From IMG/VR virus record IMGVR_UViG_2667527789_000018, positions 1-31,427 of that record: a DNA stretch of 31,427 nt; one strand, given 5' to 3'. A program made the translations under genes and the position numbers. Below are positions 1 to 31,427 of this stretch, one piece after another. The notes below the pieces were generated by a model. It saw only the letters and a list, made by a program, of their open reading frames with translations. It was not told the origin of the DNA and made no database searches. How positions within the stretch are numbered: position 1 is the stretch's first letter; each line of letters opens with the position of its first letter. Source of the DNA: a virus. Taxonomy: Duplodnaviria; Heunggongvirae; Uroviricota; Caudoviricetes.

Positions 1-1011
1 TTATAACGTCACTCCGCCTTTTAGTGGATTCAGAGCGACGGCATTTTGCAGATAGTCAGGCGCAAGGTGCGCATAGGCCATCGTCTGCTGAATGCTCGCA
101 TGTCCCAGAATCTGTTGCAGTGCGATTATATTGCCCCCATTCATCATGAAATGGCTTGCGAATGTATGCCGCAGGATGTGGGTTGCCTGATTGGGTGGTA
201 TATCAGGTTTCACTCTGCGTAAAATCCCGCAAAATTTCTCATAATCAACTTTGAATAATTTGGCGCTGGCCTCCTCTTTAACTTTTTTCTCCAGTTCCTC
301 AGAAATCGGCACGGTTCGCTTTTTACCGTTTTTGGTTTTCAGGAAGGTAACCCTGCAATTTGTAATCTGTGCTGGTTTTAGCGTGGCAACTTCCGTCCAT
401 CTTCCTCCAGTGCTCAGACATAAAAGCGCGACAAGTAAGTCATCACCAGCCAAAACATTTAACAGTTTTTCGATTTCTGCTTTTTCCAGGAACGTCATTT
501 CAGGGTTGGCCTCCGCCAGTGGCGGCAGTCCGTGAATTGGGTGTTGCCCGGAAAATTCATCCAATTGAATTAATTTTGTGAACATGCCGGATAATCTGTA
601 CATGTCACGGTTTATCGTTGAGGCACTGATACCATCACGTAGTCGCATGGAACGATAATCCATCAAAGCCCTTTTGCTCATCCTGCTCACTGGTATATCA
701 CCTATGCCGCTGATGGTTTTGAGTAGATGATTAAACTCTTTTGTTCCATGCTCGTGGTTTTGCCCGTGATATTTCCACCAGATGTCCAGCAACTCACTCA
801 AAGTCCGGCGGTCTGCTCGCTGGCCTCCCCATTCTTTCTGACTGGCATTGGCGATTGTGTATCGCTCAAATGCTAGTGCTTCAGCTTTTCTTTCGAATTT
901 CCTGCGGATGCGTTTTCCGTCGCGACCGCGAGGTCTAATGTCCACTTCATAGCGACCATCATCGAGCTTCTTAATTGCCATAAGAAAGCCCTCCGGCGCT
1001 GTATTCACCAT
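1..1011 (-). CDS. int: tyrosine integrase (P2 Int family)
   Basis: 336-aa ORF ending at a TAA whose complement is bases 1-3; C-terminal tyrosine-recombinase-like region (HILRHTFASH...GHASIQQTMAYAHL); located at prophage end beside repressor. An alternative ATG at 981 (MAIKKLDDGRYEV) has a better SD (GGAGGG), so the true start may be 981. Confidence 0.9.
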   Translation of the reverse strand: MVNTAPEGFLMAIKKLDDGRYEVDIRPRGRDGKRIRRKFERKAEALAFERYTIANASQKEWGGQRADRRTLSELLDIWWKYHGQNHEHGTKEFNHLLKTISGIGDIPVSRMSKRALMDYRSMRLRDGISASTINRDMYRLSGMFTKLIQLDEFSGQHPIHGLPPLAEANPEMTFLEKAEIEKLLNVLAGDDLLVALLCLSTGGRWTEVATLKPAQITNCRVTFLKTKNGKKRTVPISEELEKKVKEEASAKLFKVDYEKFCGILRRVKPDIPPNQATHILRHTFASHFMMNGGNIIALQQILGHASIQQTMAYAHLAPDYLQNAVALNPLKGGVTL

Positions 1012-1050: not shown

Positions 1051-1344
1051 TTAGCCAATCCTTTTCGCGGAGTGGTTGGACTCTGTTGACTCTGGCCCAA
1101 TGTGCGCGAGAGCCGGTGCGATTTGTCCTGCGTCCGGCGCGGTTTTATCTGTCATAAGCCATAGAGCATATTTTTGGAATGTGGGATGCATAGTGATTTT
1201 TAGCAAAGCTGTGCCACCGGGTTCAAAGTTTCCTCCTTCATATTTTTTAAGTGTGCTTAGCGGTAACTCTATGATTTCACAGAATTTTGATTGGCTTAGC
1301 CCTTCAGCCTCACGCAAGGCCTTAATCTTTTCGCTTAATTTCAT
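1051..1344 (-). CDS. C: immunity repressor, P2 C-like HTH protein
   Basis: 97-aa ORF with N-terminal HTH-like segment (LSQSKFCEIIELPLSTLKKY); divergent from the early operon, directly upstream of int as in P2. Confidence 0.85.
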   Translation of the reverse strand: MKLSEKIKALREAEGLSQSKFCEIIELPLSTLKKYEGGNFEPGGTALLKITMHPTFQKYALWLMTDKTAPDAGQIAPALAHIGPESTESNHSAKRIG

Positions 1345-1465
1345 TTGACATGGTGCCTATATAGGGACTAAATTCCCTCAAAACTGGAACCTATATAGGT
1401 TCCATTGATTTGAGAATAAACCAGCGTCTAAACGGTTTTGAGTGGTTTAGAAAGGGCTGGATCCT
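1345..1465. promoter_or_regulatory. immunity switch region: divergent early/repressor promoters with two palindromic operator-like sites
   Basis: TTGACA at 1345-1350; palindrome CCTATATAGG at 1356-1365 and again at 1390-1399, the second embedded in a perfect 18-bp palindrome GGAACCTATATAGGTTCC (1386-1403); sits between divergent C and cox. Confidence 0.6.
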
Positions 1466-1753
1466 ATGAGGGTACCATATATGGACGCTGAAAATTATGT
1501 GATTCAGTATCCGCTTGATGCGGTTCATGTGGATAAATTTGCTGATTTATTAGGGAAGCCAAAGACAGCCGTCAGTGAAATGGTGAAGGCAAATAAATTA
1601 CCAATTATTGAATTGCGTGATCCTTGCAAACCGAAGGCTCGTGCCGGTGAAAAATGGGTTTTCATTCCTGAGTTTAATCGCGCTGTACGTGAGGCGTTTT
1701 ATAACCGACCGGTTGAACAGCGTGATGCATGGCTTTTGTGGATGGGGTTGTGA
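1466..1753 (+). CDS. cox: Cox-like excisionase / early transcriptional regulator
   Basis: 95-aa first gene of rightward early operon; C-terminus RDAWLLWMGL resembles what I recall of P2 Cox; position identical to P2 cox. Confidence 0.7.
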   Translation: MRVPYMDAENYVIQYPLDAVHVDKFADLLGKPKTAVSEMVKANKLPIIELRDPCKPKARAGEKWVFIPEFNRAVREAFYNRPVEQRDAWLLWMGL

Positions 1754-5784: not shown

Positions 5785-5895
5785 TGGCAAAAATTCACGA
5801 GATCTTAGATAGTTTCGTACTGTATATATTTAGTTGTTACTTGCAGTTTGGTATTGTTTGCCATGGTTGTTTGTTAAGTGCTTTAAAGGTGAGGA

Positions 5896-7734
5896 ATGAG
5901 CGAGTTCGATGTTTTTTCTATTTCAGTTGATGATTTTAAAAAAAGTGAGTACGCCAGTATATTGTTACCACCAAGAAGCCATTCTTATTTTGAAATGGAA
6001 TCTTATTTTTTTCAGTTGTTGTCATTTTATAAGCAAAAAAAAGATGTGAGTTCTTGGAGGGTTTGCTATTTATTACGTTCGTTATTTAGTTTAAAATTTT
6101 CTAAGTCTGGTGATATTATCGACTTTGAGTCTAAAATCATTCTCTATCCTAAGCGAGGTTATAGACCTTCAGATTACAAGGATAATTATTTAACCATATT
6201 AACTTGTATTAAAGAAAATACTGACAACCCTTATATTATATCTAGGGTGTGTGATGTTTTATGGATAAATAACCGTAAGGATATAGATTCTGCTAATAAA
6301 GCAATAGAGTCATATGCTCTAATGATTAATGATGCTTGTGATACTTTGTTAGAAAAAAAGGAATCAGGTGACATCCATGTTTTTGATGTCGTTGACTGCT
6401 TGGATAGAGGTATTACAATATCGCGCATGCTTATTGGCAGGAAAAAACAACTGCAAGGAGGGATAGTTGACTCGACGTTAAGGCTATATCATATATTAAT
6501 AGATTCTAGTATATTTATCGGTGTTTTAAGAATTTCTGAAATTCTTTATAAGAATAATTTATTGTGCCCCTTACAATTGGCTAAGAATGCAGAAAAGATA
6601 GCTGATGAGCATTGTGGAGCTTCTTATTTTGATGCTGTGAAAAAATTGTTTTATTTTGCGTCTGAATTATATGTTAAAAATGATATGGAAGAGCAAGGAA
6701 GAAGGTGCAAAATGAAAGCGACAGAAATAACATTGGCTCAATTTGAACAGTCTTCATCTCCAACATTGAAGGCTCATTGGCTAAGAGTTGCTCTTGGGGA
6801 ATTTAGAGCGATTGGTGGAATGAGTGAAAGGATTAAAGAGATTAAAGAGGAATTAAATTCTATTCGAGATCAAATCAATGATGAAATGTATTCCTTTGCA
6901 ATACCAATGGATCTTAGTGATGTTATCGCTCAGAAAGAGCATATTTATAATCAATTAAATTTCTCAGAAATAATTAAAAAATTAATCTCTAGATTTAAGG
7001 TTGTAAGTGCCAGTGAGATTATGGAAAGAGCTCGCTCTGATGCTAAGAGATATTTTTTTGTTAATGTGAGTGATACGGTTTTTTATGATGACAGAGGACG
7101 CGTTGTGGCAAGGCAACCACCTTTAGATTCTGCTGGGGATATAAGTCTAGATGATGCCTGTGTAAATTATTTAAGAACTAGTAATATTGAGCATCAGTTT
7201 TATGTTTATGGTGAGTTTGAAGTTGTTAGGCAAAGAGTGTTGTCTAGGTATTCATTAAATGAGAATACATTTGACCCAATCTCACAACAAAGTCTATTTG
7301 TTCCTCCTGGGTATGCGGAAATATTTTCTTTAGGATTTCTTAAGCTTTGGCAGGGGGATTATGTGTCTGCCTGTTATTTGTTGTTGCCGCAGTTGGAGAA
7401 TTCAATTAGATGGATTTTAGAATTAAGAAGAAAAGAAACAACGAAAATAGATGTGTCACTTTTTGAGGAGGCTACTAGTCTATCTCAAATGCTTGCAAAT
7501 TATAAGAGTGAAATGGAAGGTATTTTTGGGAGTGATCATGTATTGACTATGGATTTATTGTTCAATATGAAAGGTGGTGCTGCAATTAGACACACGATGG
7601 CTCATGGCAGGTATACTGTAAATCATTGTTATCAACCAACTTCAGTTTTTGCCTGTGTCTTTATCTTTTATTTAACTTGTTTGCCTTTATTTAGTGTATG
7701 GGAAGATAAAGTTGAACCTTATCTGACTGATTAA
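5896..7734 (+). CDS. AT-rich accessory (cargo) protein of unknown function, 612 aa; candidate anti-phage defence protein
   Basis: ATG 5896 preceded by AGGTGAGGA; about 32% G+C in a 60-nt sample versus about 57% in phage genes; occupies the tin/old position of P2; no P-loop; C-terminal R-x4-H motif (AIRHTMAHGRY). Confidence 0.8.
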   Translation: MSEFDVFSISVDDFKKSEYASILLPPRSHSYFEMESYFFQLLSFYKQKKDVSSWRVCYLLRSLFSLKFSKSGDIIDFESKIILYPKRGYRPSDYKDNYLTILTCIKENTDNPYIISRVCDVLWINNRKDIDSANKAIESYALMINDACDTLLEKKESGDIHVFDVVDCLDRGITISRMLIGRKKQLQGGIVDSTLRLYHILIDSSIFIGVLRISEILYKNNLLCPLQLAKNAEKIADEHCGASYFDAVKKLFYFASELYVKNDMEEQGRRCKMKATEITLAQFEQSSSPTLKAHWLRVALGEFRAIGGMSERIKEIKEELNSIRDQINDEMYSFAIPMDLSDVIAQKEHIYNQLNFSEIIKKLISRFKVVSASEIMERARSDAKRYFFVNVSDTVFYDDRGRVVARQPPLDSAGDISLDDACVNYLRTSNIEHQFYVYGEFEVVRQRVLSRYSLNENTFDPISQQSLFVPPGYAEIFSLGFLKLWQGDYVSACYLLLPQLENSIRWILELRRKETTKIDVSLFEEATSLSQMLANYKSEMEGIFGSDHVLTMDLLFNMKGGAAIRHTMAHGRYTVNHCYQPTSVFACVFIFYLTCLPLFSVWEDKVEPYLTD

Positions 7735-7895
7735 TGGAAGTTGATTTAGGTATTTTGGCATTTATCTTTCTGCGTGCAATATGTGCATGGTTTTGCATGT
7801 GCCGGAGTTGCATGTTCCGGCCGTGCGTCCGCCAGAACGGGCGTGGCTCAAAAGCGGTATTGCACCTGCATTAAAAACACCCCATGAAGCGGGCG

Positions 7896-19756: not shown

Positions 19757-22012
19757 ATGAGCACAAAATTCAAAACCGTTATCACCACTGCCGGTGCAGC
19801 AAAGCTGGCAGCGGCAACCGCACCGGGAGGGCGGAAGGTCAACATTACCACGATGGCCGTCGGGGATGGCGGTGGTAAATTGCCTGTCCCGGATGCCGGA
19901 CAGACCGGGCTTATCCACGAAGTCTGGCGACATGCGCTGAACAAAATCAGTCAGGACAAACGAAACAGTAATTATATTATCGCAGAGCTGGTTATTCCGC
20001 CGGAGGTGGGCGGTTTCTGGATGCGTGAGCTTGGCCTGTACGATGATGCGGGAACGTTAATTGCCGTGGCGAACATGGCCGAAAGTTATAAGCCAGCTCT
20101 TGCCGAAGGTTCAGGGCGTTCGCAGACCTGCCGCATGGTCATCATCGTCAGCAGTGTGGCCTCAGTGGAGCTGACCATTGACACCACAACGGTGATGGCG
20201 ACGCAGGATTACGTTGATGACAAAATTGCAGAGCACGAACAGTCACGACGTCACCCGGACGCCTCGCTGACCGCAAAAGGTTTTACTCAGTTAAGCAGTG
20301 CGACCAACAGCACGTCTGAAATGCTGGCCGCAACGCCAAAAGCCGTTAAGACGGTAATGGATGAAACGAACAAGAAAGCGCCATTAAACAGCCCTGCACT
20401 GACCGGCACGCCAACGACGCCAACTGCGCGACAGGGAACGAATAATACTCAGATCGCAAACACGGCTTTCGTTATGGCCGCGATTGCCGCCCTTGTAGAC
20501 TCGTCGCCTGACGCACTGAATACGCTGAACGAGCTGGCGGCGGCGCTGGGCAATGACCCGAATTTTGCTACCACCATGACTAATGCGCTTGCGGGTAAGC
20601 AACCGAAAGATGCTACCCTGACGGCGCTGGCGGGGCTTGCTACTGCGGCAGACAGGTTTCCGTATTTTACGGGGAATGATGTTGCCAGCCTGGCAACCCT
20701 GACAAAAGTCGGGCGGGATATTCTGGCTAAATCGACCGTTGCCGCCGTTATCGAATATCTCGGTTTGCAGGAAACGGTAAATCAGGCTTCTGGCGCATTG
20801 CAGAAAAATCAGAACGGCGCGGATATTCCTGATAAAGATCGCTTCCTGAGTAACATTAATGTTTACAGCAAAGGCGAGGTGGATAAGAAAAAAGGAATGC
20901 GGCAGTACGTATTTAACGCGCCGTCTAATGCTGTTGGTGGAAAGTGGTATCCAGTTATTTTCCGGCGTTCCACTGGTAGCACTGGCGAACTGGCTTCCAG
21001 AGTGGTTATTACAACCACATCTGCCGGTGGTGATTACGCAATGAATAACTGCGAATTTAATGGAATGGTAATGCCCGGAGGTTGGACTGATCGTGGTTCA
21101 TATGCAGCAGGTTATTTTTCGACATATCAGACTAATGAGCGCGCAATCCATTCCATTGTAACAAGCCTGAAAGAAGATGATGTATGCAGCGTTTTTTACG
21201 TTGAAGGCAGGGCTTTTCCTGTGCGAGTTTTTGCCGAAGAAGGGCTAACGGTTATTGTTCCAACTCAGGATTATACCGTCGGTCAAACAACATATAAGTG
21301 GGGAGCAACTAATCCCGCGACAGAAAGCACGAACGCACAAGCCATTCTGGATTTTAACAATGGGCGAGGGTTTTATTGTTCTCACTCAATATTCGGTATT
21401 AATGCCATTTTTAGCGGAAATCTGGGGATTGGAACGGCTAATGCCCTGGGGGGAAATTCAATAGTTTTAGGAGATAACGATACTGGGTTTAAACAAAATG
21501 GTGATGGGGTGCTGGATGCTTATGCTAATGGTGTGCATGTATTCCGCTTTAGAAATGGCTCAGCAATATCATTAAAGGGTATTCAAGCTGGGGAAAGTAA
21601 GTTATTCACACTTTCAAGTGCAAATACCGCTGCCCATAATGCATCATTTAACTTGTGGGGAAATTCGTCAAGACCAACTGTTGCAGAGCTTGGTGATGAT
21701 TCAGGCTGGCATTTCTATAGTCAGCGAAATACAGATAACTCGGTGACATTTGCTGTAAACGGTCAGATACAACCAAGCAGCTGGGGTAACATTGATTCCA
21801 GATATGTGAAAGATGTTCGGCTTGGCTCACAGCAATATTATGGTGTGAACAACTGGCAAACATGGAACTTCCAGTGCCCTTCAGGTCATGTATTGTCTGG
21901 TATAAATGTTCAGGATACAGGTTCCAACTCCGCCGATAATATTGCGGGTGTTTATTACAGACCCGTTCAAAAGTATATAAATGGCACATGGTATAATGTA
22001 GCGAGCGTTTAA
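19757..22012 (+). CDS. H: tail fibre protein gpH with divergent, lower-GC C-terminal receptor-binding region
   Basis: 751 aa; conserved N-terminal part ([20 protein letters not shown]...), G+C drops from about 63% (near 19800) to 42-48% (21300-21660); followed by the fibre assembly chaperone. Confidence 0.88.
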
Positions 22013-22603: not shown

Positions 22604-22762
22604 GCCGCTCTGTGTCTGGAGTAGATTTTAGTAAAGCATTATTTTATTAGTGCAAATTCTAATCAATACATTTTATGTATATGATATCCTGCGGACTTTA
22701 ATGACTTGGTTTAGGCTAACCAGATAACACTGAAGGAATATTTTTGATAATTAAGGTGCGGT

Positions 22763-23356
22763 ATGTTTACTAAGCGACGATTAAAAAATATTAACTGGGA
22801 GGCAAGTTCAGTGATTCTTGCTATGGTTCTCTTTGTTGGAAATATATTTTATACAAATCATCGTGATGATATAAACATGGAGGCTGAGAGAGACAGTATC
22901 AGAACAATGTTTGCATATGAAATCGCTAATAACCATCGCGCTCTCACTTTTCTTGATAAAACGAGACATATTGGCTTTGACGAAAATTCGGAGCATTTTG
23001 TTGGCGAGCCTTTTGCCATTAATGTCAAATCATTAGGGGGACCTCGCTTACAGATTGCATTAAACCAGACTGATAAAGTGTTTAAATCCTACTTCGGCGA
23101 ATTAAGTAAGCTTGATAAAGAGGATGTTACTCTTCTTATGGACTATTACCATGAGCAAAGCATCCTGCTGGAGCGTGTAAAATCTACGTTACAGAAGATG
23201 AAAAGTGGTAATGATATTAAAGTTGATATTGATGGTTACTTATTAGAAGAACACTTCATGAATGAGCTTAATCTTTCTAATATATTGCTTAAACGCTATA
23301 GCTATTTATTATCACAACACGCTAAAGAACATAAAACAAAAGATTTACATAATTGA
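22763..23356 (+). CDS. AT-rich accessory membrane-anchored protein, 197 aa, in the Z/fun hotspot; candidate superinfection-exclusion or defence protein
   Basis: About 32% G+C in a 60-nt sample; N-terminal hydrophobic helix (SSVILAMVLFVGNIFY) then a charged soluble domain; occupies the G-FI intergenic slot where P2 carries Z/fun. Confidence 0.7.
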   Translation: MFTKRRLKNINWEASSVILAMVLFVGNIFYTNHRDDINMEAERDSIRTMFAYEIANNHRALTFLDKTRHIGFDENSEHFVGEPFAINVKSLGGPRLQIALNQTDKVFKSYFGELSKLDKEDVTLLMDYYHEQSILLERVKSTLQKMKSGNDIKVDIDGYLLEEHFMNELNLSNILLKRYSYLLSQHAKEHKTKDLHN

Positions 23357-23492
23357 TAATCTGCTAATGGTTATTCATGGGGTAACTATGTTTTATATGT
23401 AATCCAGCTCAGATGAATTATTGATTCTGGATAATAACCGCAGAGCGGCATATACCCTGACAGGCAAATGTCCGCTTCTTGCTCAAAGCAGA

Positions 23493-23685: not shown

Positions 23686-24876
23686 ATGAGTGACTATCAT
23701 CACGGCGTGCAGGTGCTGGAGATTAACGACGGCACCCGCGTCATTTCCACCGTATCCACGGCCATTGTCGGCATGGTCTGCACGGCCAGCGATGCAGATG
23801 CGGAAACCTTCCCCCTCAATAAACCGGTGCTGATTACCAATGTGCAGAGCGCAATTGCAAAGGCCGGTAAAAAAGGCACGCTGGCGGCATCGTTGCAGGC
23901 CATCGCTGACCAGTCAAAACCGGTCACCGTTGTCGTGCGCGTGGAAGACGGCACCGGCGACAATGAGGAAACGAAACTCGCGCAGACCGTTTCCAATATC
24001 ATCGGCACCACCGACGAAAACGGTCAGTACACCGGACTAAAAGCCCTGCTGGCGGCGGAGTCGGTAACCGGTGTTAAACCGCGTATTCTCGGTGTGCCGG
24101 GACTGGATACCAAAGAGGTGGCTGTTGCACTGGCATCCGTCTGTCAGAAGCTGCGCGCTTTCGGGTATATCAGCGCATGGGGCTGTAAAACCATTTCCGA
24201 GGTGAAAGCCTACCGTCAGAATTTCAGCCAGCGTGAGCTGATGGTCATCTGGCCGGATTTCCTCGCATGGGATACGGTCACCAGTACCACCGCCACCGCG
24301 TATGCCACCGCCCGTGCGCTGGGGCTGCGCGCTAAAATCGACCAGGAGCAGGGCTGGCATAAAACGCTGTCCAATGTCGGGGTGAACGGTGTTACCGGCA
24401 TCAGCGCCTCTGTATTCTGGGATTTGCAGGAGTCCGGTACTGATGCTGACCTGCTTAACGAGTCAGGCGTCACAACGCTGATTCGCCGCGACGGTTTCCG
24501 CTTCTGGGGTAACCGTACCTGCTCTGATGACCCGCTGTTCCTCTTTGAAAACTACACCCGCACCGCGCAGGTGCTGGCCGATACGATGGCTGAGGCGCAC
24601 ATGTGGGCGGTGGACAAGCCCATCACCGCAACGCTGATTCGCGACATCGTTGACGGCATCAATGCCAAATTCCGAGAGCTGAAAACAAACGGCTATATCG
24701 TGGATGCGACCTGCTGGTTCAGCGAAGAATCCAACGATGCGGAAACCCTCAAGGCCGGAAAACTGTATATCGACTACGACTATACACCGGTGCCTCCTCT
24801 TGAAAATCTGACCCTGCGCCAGCGTATTACCGATAAATACCTGGCAAATCTGGTCACCTCGGTTAACAGCAATTAA
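23686..24876 (+). CDS. FI: contractile tail sheath protein gpFI
   Basis: 396 aa; GGAG SD; followed by the tail tube gene. Confidence 0.92.
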   Translation: MSDYHHGVQVLEINDGTRVISTVSTAIVGMVCTASDADAETFPLNKPVLITNVQSAIAKAGKKGTLAASLQAIADQSKPVTVVVRVEDGTGDNEETKLAQTVSNIIGTTDENGQYTGLKALLAAESVTGVKPRILGVPGLDTKEVAVALASVCQKLRAFGYISAWGCKTISEVKAYRQNFSQRELMVIWPDFLAWDTVTSTTATAYATARALGLRAKIDQEQGWHKTLSNVGVNGVTGISASVFWDLQESGTDADLLNESGVTTLIRRDGFRFWGNRTCSDDPLFLFENYTRTAQVLADTMAEAHMWAVDKPITATLIRDIVDGINAKFRELKTNGYIVDATCWFSEESNDAETLKAGKLYIDYDYTPVPPLENLTLRQRITDKYLANLVTSVNSN

Positions 24877-29988: not shown

Positions 29989-30069
29989 TGCTTTTATTTT
30001 ATCTGTTTGTTTTATAAGGATAAATTAACTAAAATGGCACCATCAACAAAACCGGAAGAGGTGCTCGCG

Positions 30070-30288
30070 ATGTTTCATTGTCCTTTATGCCAGCATGCCG
30101 CACATGCGCGTACAAGCCGCTATATCACTGACACGACAAAAGAGCGTTATCATCAGTGCCAGAACGTGAATTGCAGTGCCACGTTCATCACTTATGAGTC
30201 GGTACAGCGATACATCGTGAAGCCGGGAGAAGTCCACGCCGTAAGGCCGCACCCGTTGCCGTCAGGGCAGCAAATTATGTGGATGTGA
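30070..30288 (+). CDS. ogr: late gene transcriptional activator Ogr (zinc finger)
   Basis: ATG at 30070 (MFHCPLCQHAAH...) gives 72 aa with CPLC...C-x4-C zinc-binding cysteines; the tracked ORF begins upstream at 30007. Confidence 0.9.
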   Translation: MFHCPLCQHAAHARTSRYITDTTKERYHQCQNVNCSATFITYESVQRYIVKPGEVHAVRPHPLPSGQQIMWM

Positions 30289-30298
30289 TCACAAAAAT

Positions 30299-30326
30299 AG
30301 CCCCTCAGTTGAGGGGCTTTATTTAT
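30299..30326 (+). terminator. rho-independent terminator after ogr
   Basis: AGCCCCTC-AGTT-GAGGGGCT hairpin (30299-30318) followed by TTATTTAT. Confidence 0.75.
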
Positions 30327-30331
30327 GGTCG

Positions 30332-30351
30332 ATGTGGACGCTATGTGGACG
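30332..30351 (+). repeat. tandem direct repeat ATGTGGACG x2 (candidate integrase arm-type binding sites of attR)
   Basis: ATGTGGACG at 30332-30340 and 30343-30351 with 11-bp periodicity, between ogr and host DNA. Confidence 0.45.
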
Positions 30352-30416
30352 GTGGTTGATATAAATCCATTTATATCATCAGGTTAGGTGCTTTTTTGTG
30401 ACACCATCCCTGTCTT

Positions 30417-30443
30417 CCCCCACATGATGTGGGGGTTTTTTTT
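30417..30443 (+). terminator. strong rho-independent terminator (possibly the end of a 3'UTR-derived sRNA of the upstream host gene)
   Basis: CCCCCAC-ATGAT-GTGGGGG hairpin followed by an 8-nt T run, 80 bp upstream of fieF. Confidence 0.75.
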
Positions 30444-30524
30444 ATCCTCAATTTGCCTGCTGCTTAATGCATTGCAGATGATTTGCTTCCGTTATACTAG
30501 CGTCAGTTGATAGCGGGAGTATTT

Positions 30525-31427
30525 ATGAATCAATCTTATGGACGGCTGGTCAGTCGGGCGGCGATTGCTGCGACGGCGATGGCTTCGCTGCTATTGCTGA
30601 TTAAAATTTTTGCATGGTGGTATACCGGGTCGGTGAGTATTCTCGCCGCGCTGGTGGATTCGCTGGTGGATATCGGCGCGTCGTTGACGAATTTATTGGT
30701 GGTGCGATATTCCCTGCAACCTGCCGACGATAATCACTCGTTTGGTCACGGTAAAGCTGAGTCCCTCGCGGCGCTGGCGCAAAGTATGTTTATCTCCGGT
30801 TCGGCACTATTCCTGTTTTTGACGGGTATTCAACATCTGATATCTCCAACACCGATGACAGATCCAGGCGTCGGGGTTATCGTGACAATTGTGGCGCTAA
30901 TTTGTACGATTATCCTTGTCTCGTTTCAGCGTTGGGTGGTGCGGCGGACGCAAAGCCAGGCGGTGCGGGCTGATATGCTACATTACCAGTCTGATGTTAT
31001 GATGAACGGCGCAATTCTGCTGGCGCTGGGGTTGTCCTGGTACGGCTGGCATCGCGCCGATGCTCTGTTTGCATTGGGAATCGGCATCTATATTTTATAT
31101 AGCGCGTTACGCATGGGATATGAGGCGGTACAGTCATTACTGGATCGCGCATTGCCTGATGAGGAACGGCAAGAAATTATTGATATCGTGACTTCCTGGC
31201 CGGGTGTTAGCGGCGCTCACGATCTTCGCACGCGGCAGTCAGGGCCGACCCGCTTTATTCAGATTCATTTGGAAATGGAAGACTCTCTGCCTTTGGTTCA
31301 GGCACATATGGTGGCGGATCAGGTAGAGCAGGCTATTTTACGGCGTTTTCCGGGATCGGATGTAATTATCCATCAGGACCCCTGTTCCGTCGTACCCAGG
31401 GAGGGTAAACGGTCTATGCTTTCATAA
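30525..31427 (+). CDS. fieF: cation diffusion facilitator ferrous-iron/zinc efflux transporter FieF (YiiP)
   Basis: 300 aa from ATG 30525 ([25 protein letters not shown]...), recognised as enterobacterial FieF; CDF-type [10 protein letters not shown] motif; the tracked ORF begins at upstream TTG 30507. Confidence 0.92.

What the first reader, a model, noticed from the sequence alone, without database searches (positions are those of the whole stretch)
30326..30445. attR-side arm: tandem ATGTGGACG repeats between ogr and host DNA; att core cannot be defined within this window
Immediately after the ogr terminator, ATGTGGACG occurs twice in direct orientation with 11-bp spacing (30332-30340, 30343-30351). 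Tandem direct repeats at helical-turn spacing in an att arm are the expected form of tyrosine-integrase arm-type binding sites; I recall P2 Int arm sites being direct repeats with a TGTGGAC-like core, but am not certain. The core itself must lie between about 30352 and 30445. The matching attL copy lies outside the window, since the window starts exactly at the int stop.
Basis: partly seen in the sequence, partly recalled or inferred. Interest (0 to 1): 0.45.

Follow-up and report, generated by a model that had tools for sequence, protein, structure and literature searches.

The report
Known Wphi-type prophage attR arm sites

Summary
ATGTGGACG occurs exactly twice in the window, at 30332-30340 and 30343-30351, 11 bp apart and just after the ogr terminator.

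The repeats align, in register, with the stretch that the P2 reference record annotates as the Int-binding 'P arm'. They match the published P2-type arm consensus tgTGGaCa. They keep the same spacing in phages with three different attachment cores and four different left-hand contexts. They are absent from prophage-free E. coli.

The prophage is Wphi-type: its integrase is 98% identical to Wphi Int, and it lies in the known Wphi site between cpxP and fieF.

Its attL copy lies 117-163 bp before window position 1 in a genome that is identical over the stretches compared. The core contains the cpxP terminator hairpin. About 790 of 5426 complete E. coli genomes carry this junction.

One small addition: a loop polymorphism at 30427 is phage-type in attL and host-type in attR in two lysogens. 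This places strand exchange in the left 27 bp of the core.

This is already known biology and of low interest.

The parts
1..981 (-). int: Wphi-type tyrosine integrase (326 aa). The window begins at its stop codon.
   Evidence: 321/326 identical to Wphi Int and 52% identical to P2 Int. Pfam Int_N plus Phage_integrase. RefSeq CDS in RM11911 at the same place. The N-terminal 30 aa are 27/30 identical to P2 Int, while residues 56-160 are only 40/105 identical.
1466..1753 (+). cox: excision directionality factor and switch repressor. In P2 its att binding sites are on the int-side arm, which lies outside this window.
   Evidence: Pfam Phage_Cox, E = 1.2e-23. In P2 the Cox footprint is annotated between the core and the P' arm.
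30070..30288 (+). ogr: late-gene activator, the last phage gene before attR.
   Evidence: RefSeq ogrK CDS in RM11911 maps to these coordinates. The ORF appears.
30299..30325 (+). ogr / late-operon intrinsic terminator: an 8-bp stem followed by a T-rich tail.
   Evidence: Fold energy -15.8 kcal/mol, z = -3.8. Terminator scan hit. Homologous to the terminator annotated in P2 at 24265-24288.
30332..30340 (+). P-arm Int arm-type site 1 (ATGTGGACG; conserved heptamer TGTGGAC at 30333-30339).
   Evidence: Aligns with the first repeat of the P2 annotated Int P arm. The heptamer differs at one base in P2-core and third-core phages (TGTGGTC) and is otherwise conserved in all 10 attP/attR regions compared.
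30343..30351 (+). P-arm Int arm-type site 2 (ATGTGGACG; heptamer at 30344-30350). The last base is G here and A in Wphi.
   Evidence: TGTGGAC is invariant in all 10 regions compared, always 11 bp after site 1.
30357..30393 (+). AT-rich bend region homologous to the P2 IHF footprint. It contains a 10-bp perfect palindrome, TGATATAAAT-CC-ATTTATATCA (30357-30378), and an IHF-consensus-like element, TATCATCAGGTTA (30374-30386).
   Evidence: A gapless projection of the P2 'protein_bind IHF' feature (24324-24357) falls on 30360-30393. WATCAANNNNTTR matches with one mismatch, at the same aligned position as P2's TTTCAATTTATTG. The segment tgatataaatccatttatatcat is invariant among the four Wphi-type sequences; strain 4/2-1 has tgacataaat there.
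30400..30446 (+). attR core: 47-bp identity block GACACCATCCCTGTCTTCCCCCACATGATGTGGGGGTTTTTTTTATC, repeated perfectly at attL.
   Evidence: Longest common substring of attR and attL in RM11911. The left edge is where empty-site homology starts. The right edge is where homology to the listed phage genomes ends.
30404..30410 (.). Candidate overlap (strand-exchange) region CCATCCC, flanked by the short inverted repeat GACA / TGTC (AGACA / TGTCT in attB and attL). Inferred, not shown.
   Evidence: The loop polymorphism places the crossover left of 30427. A gapless projection of the P2 core centre from the arm repeats falls at about 30405.
30417..30443 (+). cpxP-type intrinsic terminator inside the core: hairpin at 30417-30435 followed by T8. 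The loop base 30427 is polymorphic (A here and in phage attP, C in K-12-type hosts).
   Evidence: Terminator scan. Fold energy -16.5 kcal/mol. The same hairpin lies 40 nt after the cpxP stop in the empty site.
30447..31427 (+). Host DNA: the fieF upstream region and the fieF CDS (30525-31427).
   Evidence: No Wphi match beyond 30446. RefSeq fieF annotation. Present in all 5426 E. coli genomes.

Best explanation
The interval is the P-O-B' junction (attR) of a Wphi-type P2-like prophage (Peduovirus) integrated between cpxP and fieF.

The two ATGTGGACG repeats are the P-arm arm-type binding sites for the N-terminal domain of the prophage's heterobivalent tyrosine integrase. Each repeat would bind one Int N-terminal domain, on the same face of the helix because the repeats are 11 bp apart.

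The AT-rich segment that follows (30357-30393) is the IHF bend site. It would fold the arm back so that the catalytic and core-binding domains of arm-bound Int can reach the core at 30400-30446.

For excision, this complex would pair with the attL complex, which lies just outside the window. That complex consists of the 47-bp core copy, the Cox sites, and a second pair of TGTGGACA repeats 13-35 bp beyond the int stop. Int would exchange strands inside the left part of the core.

The right part of the core is the cpxP terminator. The phage carries a copy of it, so cpxP keeps a terminator at attL and a second copy separates ogr from fieF at attR.

Shown here: the sequence anatomy, the homology to annotated P2 sites, conservation, the prophage boundaries and the core. 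Inferred from P2 biochemistry: the binding, the bending and the order of events.
For: Boundaries:
- The phage genomes listed match up to 30446.
- Empty sites match from 30400.
- attL and attR share a perfect 47-mer.

Identity of the element:
- Int is 98% identical to Wphi Int.
- The Wphi integration site is given as MG1655 coordinate 4104392 (PMC3448106).
- The Wphi1 prophage is listed at cpxP-fieF in E. coli W (PMC3032704).

Arm sites:
- The P2 reference record annotates Int P arm, IHF, core, Cox and Int P' arm in this order. The window aligns with the P arm and IHF segments in register.
- A second pair of TGTGGACA repeats, with the same orientation and the same 11-bp spacing, lies next to int in Wphi attP and in attL of RM11911, 4/2-1 and AR_0137.

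Conservation against a changing background:
- The pair persists with three different cores (Wphi-type, P2-type and a third type).
- It also persists with four different left flanks: the ogr terminator, another terminator in GMS190, an unrelated gene in Salmonella phage FSL SP-004, and a 213-aa cargo gene in strain 4/2-1. In each case homology resumes right at the repeats.

Protein side: the Int N-terminus is 27/30 identical to P2 Int, while the core-binding region is 38% identical. That fits a shared arm specificity with a different core specificity, as described in PMC3448106.
Against: - No binding experiment exists for this exact sequence. The P2 footprints are taken from a database annotation; the primary papers could not be read.
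- The IHF consensus match has one mismatch. Such matches are no more frequent in the window than chance (23 seen, 24.4 expected), so the IHF assignment rests on homology of position only.
- A 9-bp tandem repeat at a helical-turn offset is not rare by itself in 31 kb.
Confidence: 0.93

Rival explanations
1. The repeats are binding sites for the recombination directionality factor Cox rather than for Int. RDF sites are also direct repeats spaced one helical turn apart.
For: RDF sites are typically direct repeats about one helical turn apart (abstract of PMC7498355, listed). P2 cox-boxes are spaced 10-11 bp apart (PMC3936717). The prophage encodes a Cox protein.
Against: - The P2 cox-box consensus is TTAAAG/CNCA, which is unrelated to TGTGGAC.
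- In P2 the Cox footprint is annotated on the other side of the core, next to int.
- P2 and Wphi Cox differ in DNA specificity, and Wphi Cox cannot complement P2 cox. Yet the TGTGGAC pair is shared by both phages, in parallel with the near-identical Int N-termini.
Confidence: 0.03
2. The repeat is a chance or slippage duplication with no function, sitting in spacer DNA after the ogr terminator.
For: Tandem 9-mers at 10-12 bp offsets occur at two other places in the window, and 27% of random sequences of this size have at least one.
Against: - The pair is kept at the same place and spacing in phages whose surrounding sequence has diverged or been replaced.
- A second pair of the same motif, at the same spacing, sits on the other arm.
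- The homologous P2 stretch is annotated as an Int-binding site.
Confidence: 0.02
3. The repeats belong to conserved host intergenic DNA between cpxP and fieF.
For: None found.
Against: - In prophage-free genomes the match to the window starts only at 30400 (sequence).
- The cpxP-fieF spacer of a K-12-derived strain contains no TGTGGAC.
- The repeats are present in free phage genomes.
Confidence: 0

Closest known systems
Phage Wphi attP / prophage Wphi1 attR at cpxP-fieF (Peduovirus Wphi, AY135739 / NC_005056)
   Same: - The window matches Wphi from ogr through the core at 99.1% identity.
- Both have the same 47-bp core and the same cpxP-fieF site.
- Int is 98% identical.
- The two arm repeats and the IHF-like segment are the same.
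   Different: - The second arm repeat ends in G here and in A in Wphi.
- The int-side arm flank of the matching genome is a different sequence variant from that of Wphi.
- The C/switch region and three cargo or tail-fibre segments differ.
Phage P2 attP P arm (NC_001895 features: Int P arm 24293-24320, IHF 24324-24357)
   Same: - Same order: ogr terminator, two arm repeats 11 bp apart, IHF region, core.
- The repeats align in register.
- Same consensus, tgTGGaCa.
- The N-terminal Int domain is 90% identical.
   Different: - The core is unrelated: a 27-bp P2 core against a 47-bp core that includes the cpxP terminator.
- The first P2 repeat is TGTGGTC.
- The whole span from the first P-arm repeat to the last P'-arm repeat is 214 bp in Wphi against 192 bp in P2.
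- In P2 the P' arm overlaps the int 3' end, whereas here it lies 13-35 bp beyond the int stop.
Phage lambda attP arm-type sites (P1, P2, P'1-P'3), bound by the Int N-terminal domain together with IHF sites
   Same: The logic is the same: a heterobivalent tyrosine integrase, arm sites remote from the core, and IHF bends that bring arm-bound Int to the core. This rests on general knowledge and on the comparison in PMC3448106.
   Different: - The arm consensus is different.
- The number and arrangement of sites differ: here there are two direct repeats on each arm, all in one orientation.
- The directionality factor is Cox, not Xis.
Phage 186-type arm sites (consensus tgccGCCActt)
   Same: [quoted passage not shown]
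   Different: The motif and the Int N-terminal discriminator residues are different. The window clearly carries the P2-type motif.

Membership tests
P2-type Int arm-binding site (P arm of attP/attR) | At least two direct repeats matching tgTGGaCa, about one helical turn apart. | tested here: met
   aTGTGGACg occurs twice, 11 bp apart, on the same strand. The consensus comes from PMC3448106.
P2-type Int arm-binding site (P arm of attP/attR) | Location between the ogr terminator and the core, homologous to the footprinted P2 P arm. | tested here: met
   Aligns in register with the NC_001895 feature protein_bind Int 'P arm' at 24293-24320.
P2-type Int arm-binding site (P arm of attP/attR) | A partner pair of the same motif on the int-side (P') arm, in the same orientation. 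| tested here: met
   TGTGGACActaTGTGGACA is present in Wphi attP and in attL of RM11911, 4/2-1 and AR_0137. It lies outside the window itself.
P2-type Int arm-binding site (P arm of attP/attR) | A cognate integrase with a P2-type N-terminal arm-binding domain. | tested here: met
   Residues 1-30 are 27/30 identical to P2 Int. Pfam Int_N and Phage_integrase domains are present.
P2-type Int arm-binding site (P arm of attP/attR) | An IHF site between the arm sites and the core. | tested here: inconclusive
   TATCATCAGGTTA (30374-30386) has one mismatch to WATCAANNNNTTR and sits at the position of the P2 IHF footprint. The consensus match alone is at chance level.
P2-type Int arm-binding site (P arm of attP/attR) | Physical binding by Int (footprint or EMSA), and a requirement for the sites in recombination. 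| not testable with these tools
   This needs purified Int and mutant att substrates.
Wphi-type attachment site (cpxP-fieF) | Core identity shared by attL, attR, attP and attB at the cpxP terminator. | tested here: met
   The 47-bp block at 30400-30446 is identical in attL and attR. It is identical in Wphi attP, and identical but for loop base 30427 in K-12-type attB.
Wphi-type attachment site (cpxP-fieF) | An integrase of the Wphi specificity class. | tested here: met
   321/326 identical to Wphi Int.
Wphi-type attachment site (cpxP-fieF) | Chromosomal position between cpxP and fieF. | tested here: met
   RefSeq annotation of RM11911 gives cpxP, int ... ogrK, fieF. The literature position appears.

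The most novel reading that the evidence does not exclude
Only the left 27 bp of the 47-bp identity block (30400-30426) contains the strand-exchange region. It is probably centred on CCATCCC (30404-30410), between the short inverted repeat (A)GACA / TGTC(T). On this reading, the right 20 bp (the cpxP terminator hairpin and T-tract) are not needed for catalysis. The phage would carry them so that integration rebuilds the host terminator.

Evidence:
- In lysogens of hosts with the C allele, loop base 30427 is phage-type (A) at attL and host-type (C) at attR. This was checked directly in two different prophage variants.
- About 122 lysogens have an exact attR(C) junction, an indirect count. No exact attL(C) was found for three int-side flank variants.
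- Projecting the P2 core centre from the arm repeats lands at about 30405.

This may already be in Wphi papers that I could not read.
Probability: 0.55. Interest if true: 0.2.

Novelty: already known. Interest (0 to 1): 0.1.

Why it matters
It matters little beyond correct annotation.

- It fixes the right prophage boundary at 30446 and the core at 30400-30446.
- It identifies the element as a Wphi-type Peduovirus in the standard cpxP-fieF site, which is occupied in roughly 15% of complete E. coli genomes.
- It shows that int, cox and the attR arm, IHF-like segment and core are intact in the window. A matching genome also has an intact attL arm and core. The prophage is therefore plausibly excision-competent.

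The crossover-side inference from the natural A/C polymorphism is a cheap, testable footnote to P2-family site-specific recombination.

Tried and rejected
- Primary papers. I tried to read Liu & Haggard-Ljungquist 1999 (PMC113030), Karlsson 2006 (PMC1482927) and Yu & Haggard-Ljungquist 1993 (PMC193207). None is held. Supplementary Fig. S4 of PMC3448106, which lists the arm repeats, is not held either. My recollection that the 1999 paper reports a 47-nt identity at 88.6 min is therefore unverified memory. The 47 bp reported here is measured independently.
- Chance statistics. On the repeat alone they are weak, so I did not rely on them.
- The IHF consensus scan is at background level across the window. 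It is used only together with the positional homology to P2.
- The 10-bp palindrome at 30357-30378, tested as an RNA hairpin, is no more stable than shuffled sequence (z = -0.7). It is not a terminator.
- A window-type P arm combined with the C allele has no 100% match. The A/C test therefore had to be made on two related prophage variants rather than on this exact prophage.
- The number of independent integration events behind the approximately 122 attR(C) lysogens could not be established. Many may be one lineage.

Full report
**Observation**

The window reads ...AGCCCCTCAGTTGAGGGGCTTTATTTATGGTCG ATGTGGACG CT ATGTGGACG GTGG....
- ATGTGGACG lies at 30332-30340 and 30343-30351. These are the only two exact copies on either strand of the window.
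- TGTGGAC occurs three times in all.
- The repeats follow the ogr terminator: stem 30299-30318, -15.8 kcal/mol, z = -3.8.
- As a bare statistic the repeat is not remarkable. Three tandem 9-mers at 10-12 bp offsets are present against 0.33 expected, and 27% of random sequences have at least one. Significance has to come from context.

**Where the prophage ends**

- A megablast of 29990-30520 against phage genomes gives dozens of Peduovirus genomes (Wphi, P24B2, HQ103, L-413C and others) that match up to query base 457. That is window 30446, and they match no further.
- A local blastn of the whole window against Wphi also ends at 30446.
- Against 5426 complete E. coli genomes, 787 hold at least 80% of 30290-30530. 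The remaining genomes listed (a spread sample of 40 rows) match only from query base 111, which is window 30400.
- The overlap of phage homology and empty-site homology is therefore 30400-30446.
- The empty site of a K-12-derived strain reads cpxP stop ...CCATA GACACCATCCCTGTCTTCCCCCACATGcTGTGGGGGTTTTTTTTATC CTCAATTTGCC... fieF.

**The core, including the copy outside the window**

- E. coli RM11911 (NZ_CP044313.1) is 100% identical to the window over the 241-nt query, and also at the window start.
- In that genome the window's base 1 is the int stop codon. Upstream of it lie a pair of TGTGGACA repeats, an arm spacer, and then the sequence GACACC...TTATC directly after cpxP.
- The longest common substring of attL and attR is exactly 47 bp, at window 30400-30446.
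- The core contains an intrinsic terminator, with the hairpin at 30417-30435 followed by T8. This is the cpxP terminator of the empty site.
- Integration therefore duplicates the terminator. One copy stays behind cpxP. The other lies between ogr and fieF.

**What the repeats are**

- The P2 reference record (NC_001895) annotates, in order:
  - the ogr terminator (24265-24288);
  - protein_bind Int 'P arm' (24293-24320);
  - protein_bind IHF (24324-24357);
  - Int 'attP core' (24356-24383);
  - Cox (24399-24472);
  - Int 'P' arm' (24470-24496).
- The P2 P arm reads cgaTGTGGTCaatgTGTGGACgtgacca. MAFFT and a gapless anchor alignment both put the window's two repeats exactly on the two P2 repeats.
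- Nilsson et al. [quoted passage not shown] The 186-type consensus is tgccGCCActt. They also state that the arm sites are read by the Int N-terminal domain.
- Wphi attP carries the second pair, gTGTGGACActaTGTGGACAct, next to int. It has the same orientation and the same 11-bp spacing. So do attL of RM11911, 4/2-1 and AR_0137.

**Conservation against a changing background**

I compared ten attP/attR regions.
- The pair TGTGG(A/T)C-N4-TGTGGAC is present in phages with three different cores: Wphi-type, P2-type and a third type beginning AAAAAATGTCACC.
- It is also present behind four different left flanks:
  - the ogr terminator;
  - a different terminator in phage GMS190;
  - an unrelated gene in Salmonella phage FSL SP-004 (genus Stockinghallvirus);
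  - in E. coli 4/2-1, a 213-aa cargo gene inserted between ogr and the arm.
- In each case similarity to the window resumes at the repeats. That marks the repeats as the outer edge of the att module, not as part of the ogr terminator region.
- Among the four Wphi-type sequences, the 18 bp TGTGGACgctaTGTGGAC and the segment tgatataaatccatttatatcat are invariant, while neighbouring bases vary. Strain 4/2-1 has one change in the second segment, tgacataaat.

**The integrase**

- The window's Int (1-981, minus strand) is 321/326 identical to Wphi Int and 52% identical to P2 Int.
- The similarity to P2 Int is uneven. It is 27/30 in the first 30 residues and 40/105 in residues 56-160.
- This fits the statement in PMC3448106 that the terminal domains are conserved and the core-binding domain is variable. 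It also fits shared arm sites with a different core.
- Wphi is recorded as integrating at MG1655 coordinate 4104392, and Wphi1 is listed at cpxP-fieF in E. coli W.

**IHF segment**

- A gapless projection of the P2 IHF footprint falls on window 30360-30393.
- TATCATCAGGTTA (30374-30386) has one mismatch to WATCAANNNNTTR. It aligns with P2's TTTCAATTTATTG.
- The consensus match alone is at background frequency: 23 matches against 24.4 expected. This assignment therefore rests on homology.
- The perfect 10-bp palindrome at 30357-30378 is not a stable RNA hairpin.

**Mechanism (inferred from P2-family knowledge)**

- Int N-terminal domains occupy the two arm repeats.
- IHF bends the 49-bp spacer so that the catalytic domains reach the core.
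- With Cox bound on the attL arm, attL and attR synapse and Int exchanges strands.
- PMC3936717 describes the six cox-boxes at P2 attP and the role of Cox at attL.

**A small addition: which side of the core is exchanged**

- Base 30427, in the terminator loop, is A in phage attP and in this window. It is C in K-12-type empty sites.
- An attR query carrying C finds many lysogens at 100% identity and 100% coverage. Band arithmetic suggests about 122: 1048 records at 99% or more, minus about 926 empty C-allele sites. This count is indirect.
- attL queries carrying C, with three different int-side flank variants, never reach 100%.
- Two lysogens were read directly, and both have attL = A and attR = C:
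  - 4/2-1, with the cargo gene next to the arm;
  - AR_0137, with ogr next to the arm, a different gene A allele and a different P' flank base.
- attR is phage-left/host-right. The crossover therefore lies left of 30427, within 30400-30426.
- Geometry agrees. The P2 core centre, projected from the arm repeats, lands at about 30405. That is inside CCATCCC (30404-30410), which is flanked by GACA/TGTC.
- Two caveats apply. The lysogens may derive from few events. If 30427 lay within the overlap, heteroduplex segregation could give the same pattern by chance.

**Verdict**

The feature is the well-characterised P-arm of a Wphi-type attR. The novelty class is 'already known' and the interest is low.

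Noticed in passing
window 5896-7734 (+), within the stretch 5802-7895 that has no Wphi match: A 612-aa cargo ORF sits after replication gene A. It matches the PADLOC candidate defence family PDC-S39 (E = 1.4e-73) and Pfam DUF7380. It replaces the orf91-mth-orf98 region of Wphi.
   Followed up: partly
window 22763-23356 (+), within 22615-23470, which has no Wphi match: A 197-aa ORF with a predicted N-terminal hydrophobic segment and no Pfam or PADLOC match. It sits between the tail-fibre assembly gene and FI, where Wphi has orf44.
   Followed up: partly
window 1123-1495: The 5' part of the C repressor gene and the C-cox switch region have no DNA match to Wphi, although int and cox flank it at about 96% identity. 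The prophage may therefore belong to a different immunity class from Wphi.
   Followed up: no
window 20787-21967: The distal part of the tail-fibre gene H region has no Wphi match. This is the usual host-range mosaicism.
   Followed up: no
window 30277-30285: A third, degenerate copy, ATGTGGATG, lies 55 bp (five helical turns) upstream of arm repeat 1. It sits inside the last codons of ogr (...IMWM*) and is also present in P2. It is probably a coding coincidence, and it lies outside the P2 annotated footprint.
   Followed up: partly
window 30427-30435: The right arm of the core hairpin, ATGTGGGGG, shares its first six bases (ATGTGG) with the arm-type repeat ATGTGGACG. I do not know whether this is meaningful.
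   Followed up: no
window 30427; L002 790-850; L018 200-230: There is an A/C polymorphism in the loop of the cpxP terminator. Roughly 900 of about 4600 prophage-free genomes carry C (K-12 type) and the rest mostly A, as inferred from identity bands.
   Followed up: partly
L019 4632-5273 (E. coli 4/2-1, NZ_CP023834.1): A related prophage carries a 213-aa hypothetical gene with its own terminator, inserted between ogr and the P-arm repeats. The ogr-attP gap therefore acts as a cargo insertion point.
   Followed up: no
L016 3083-7948 (E. coli M217) and L017 9444-10001 (4/2-1): ISEc12 (IS21 family) copies lie inside or next to these related prophages. In M217 the insertion splits replication gene A, so that prophage is probably defective.
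   Followed up: no
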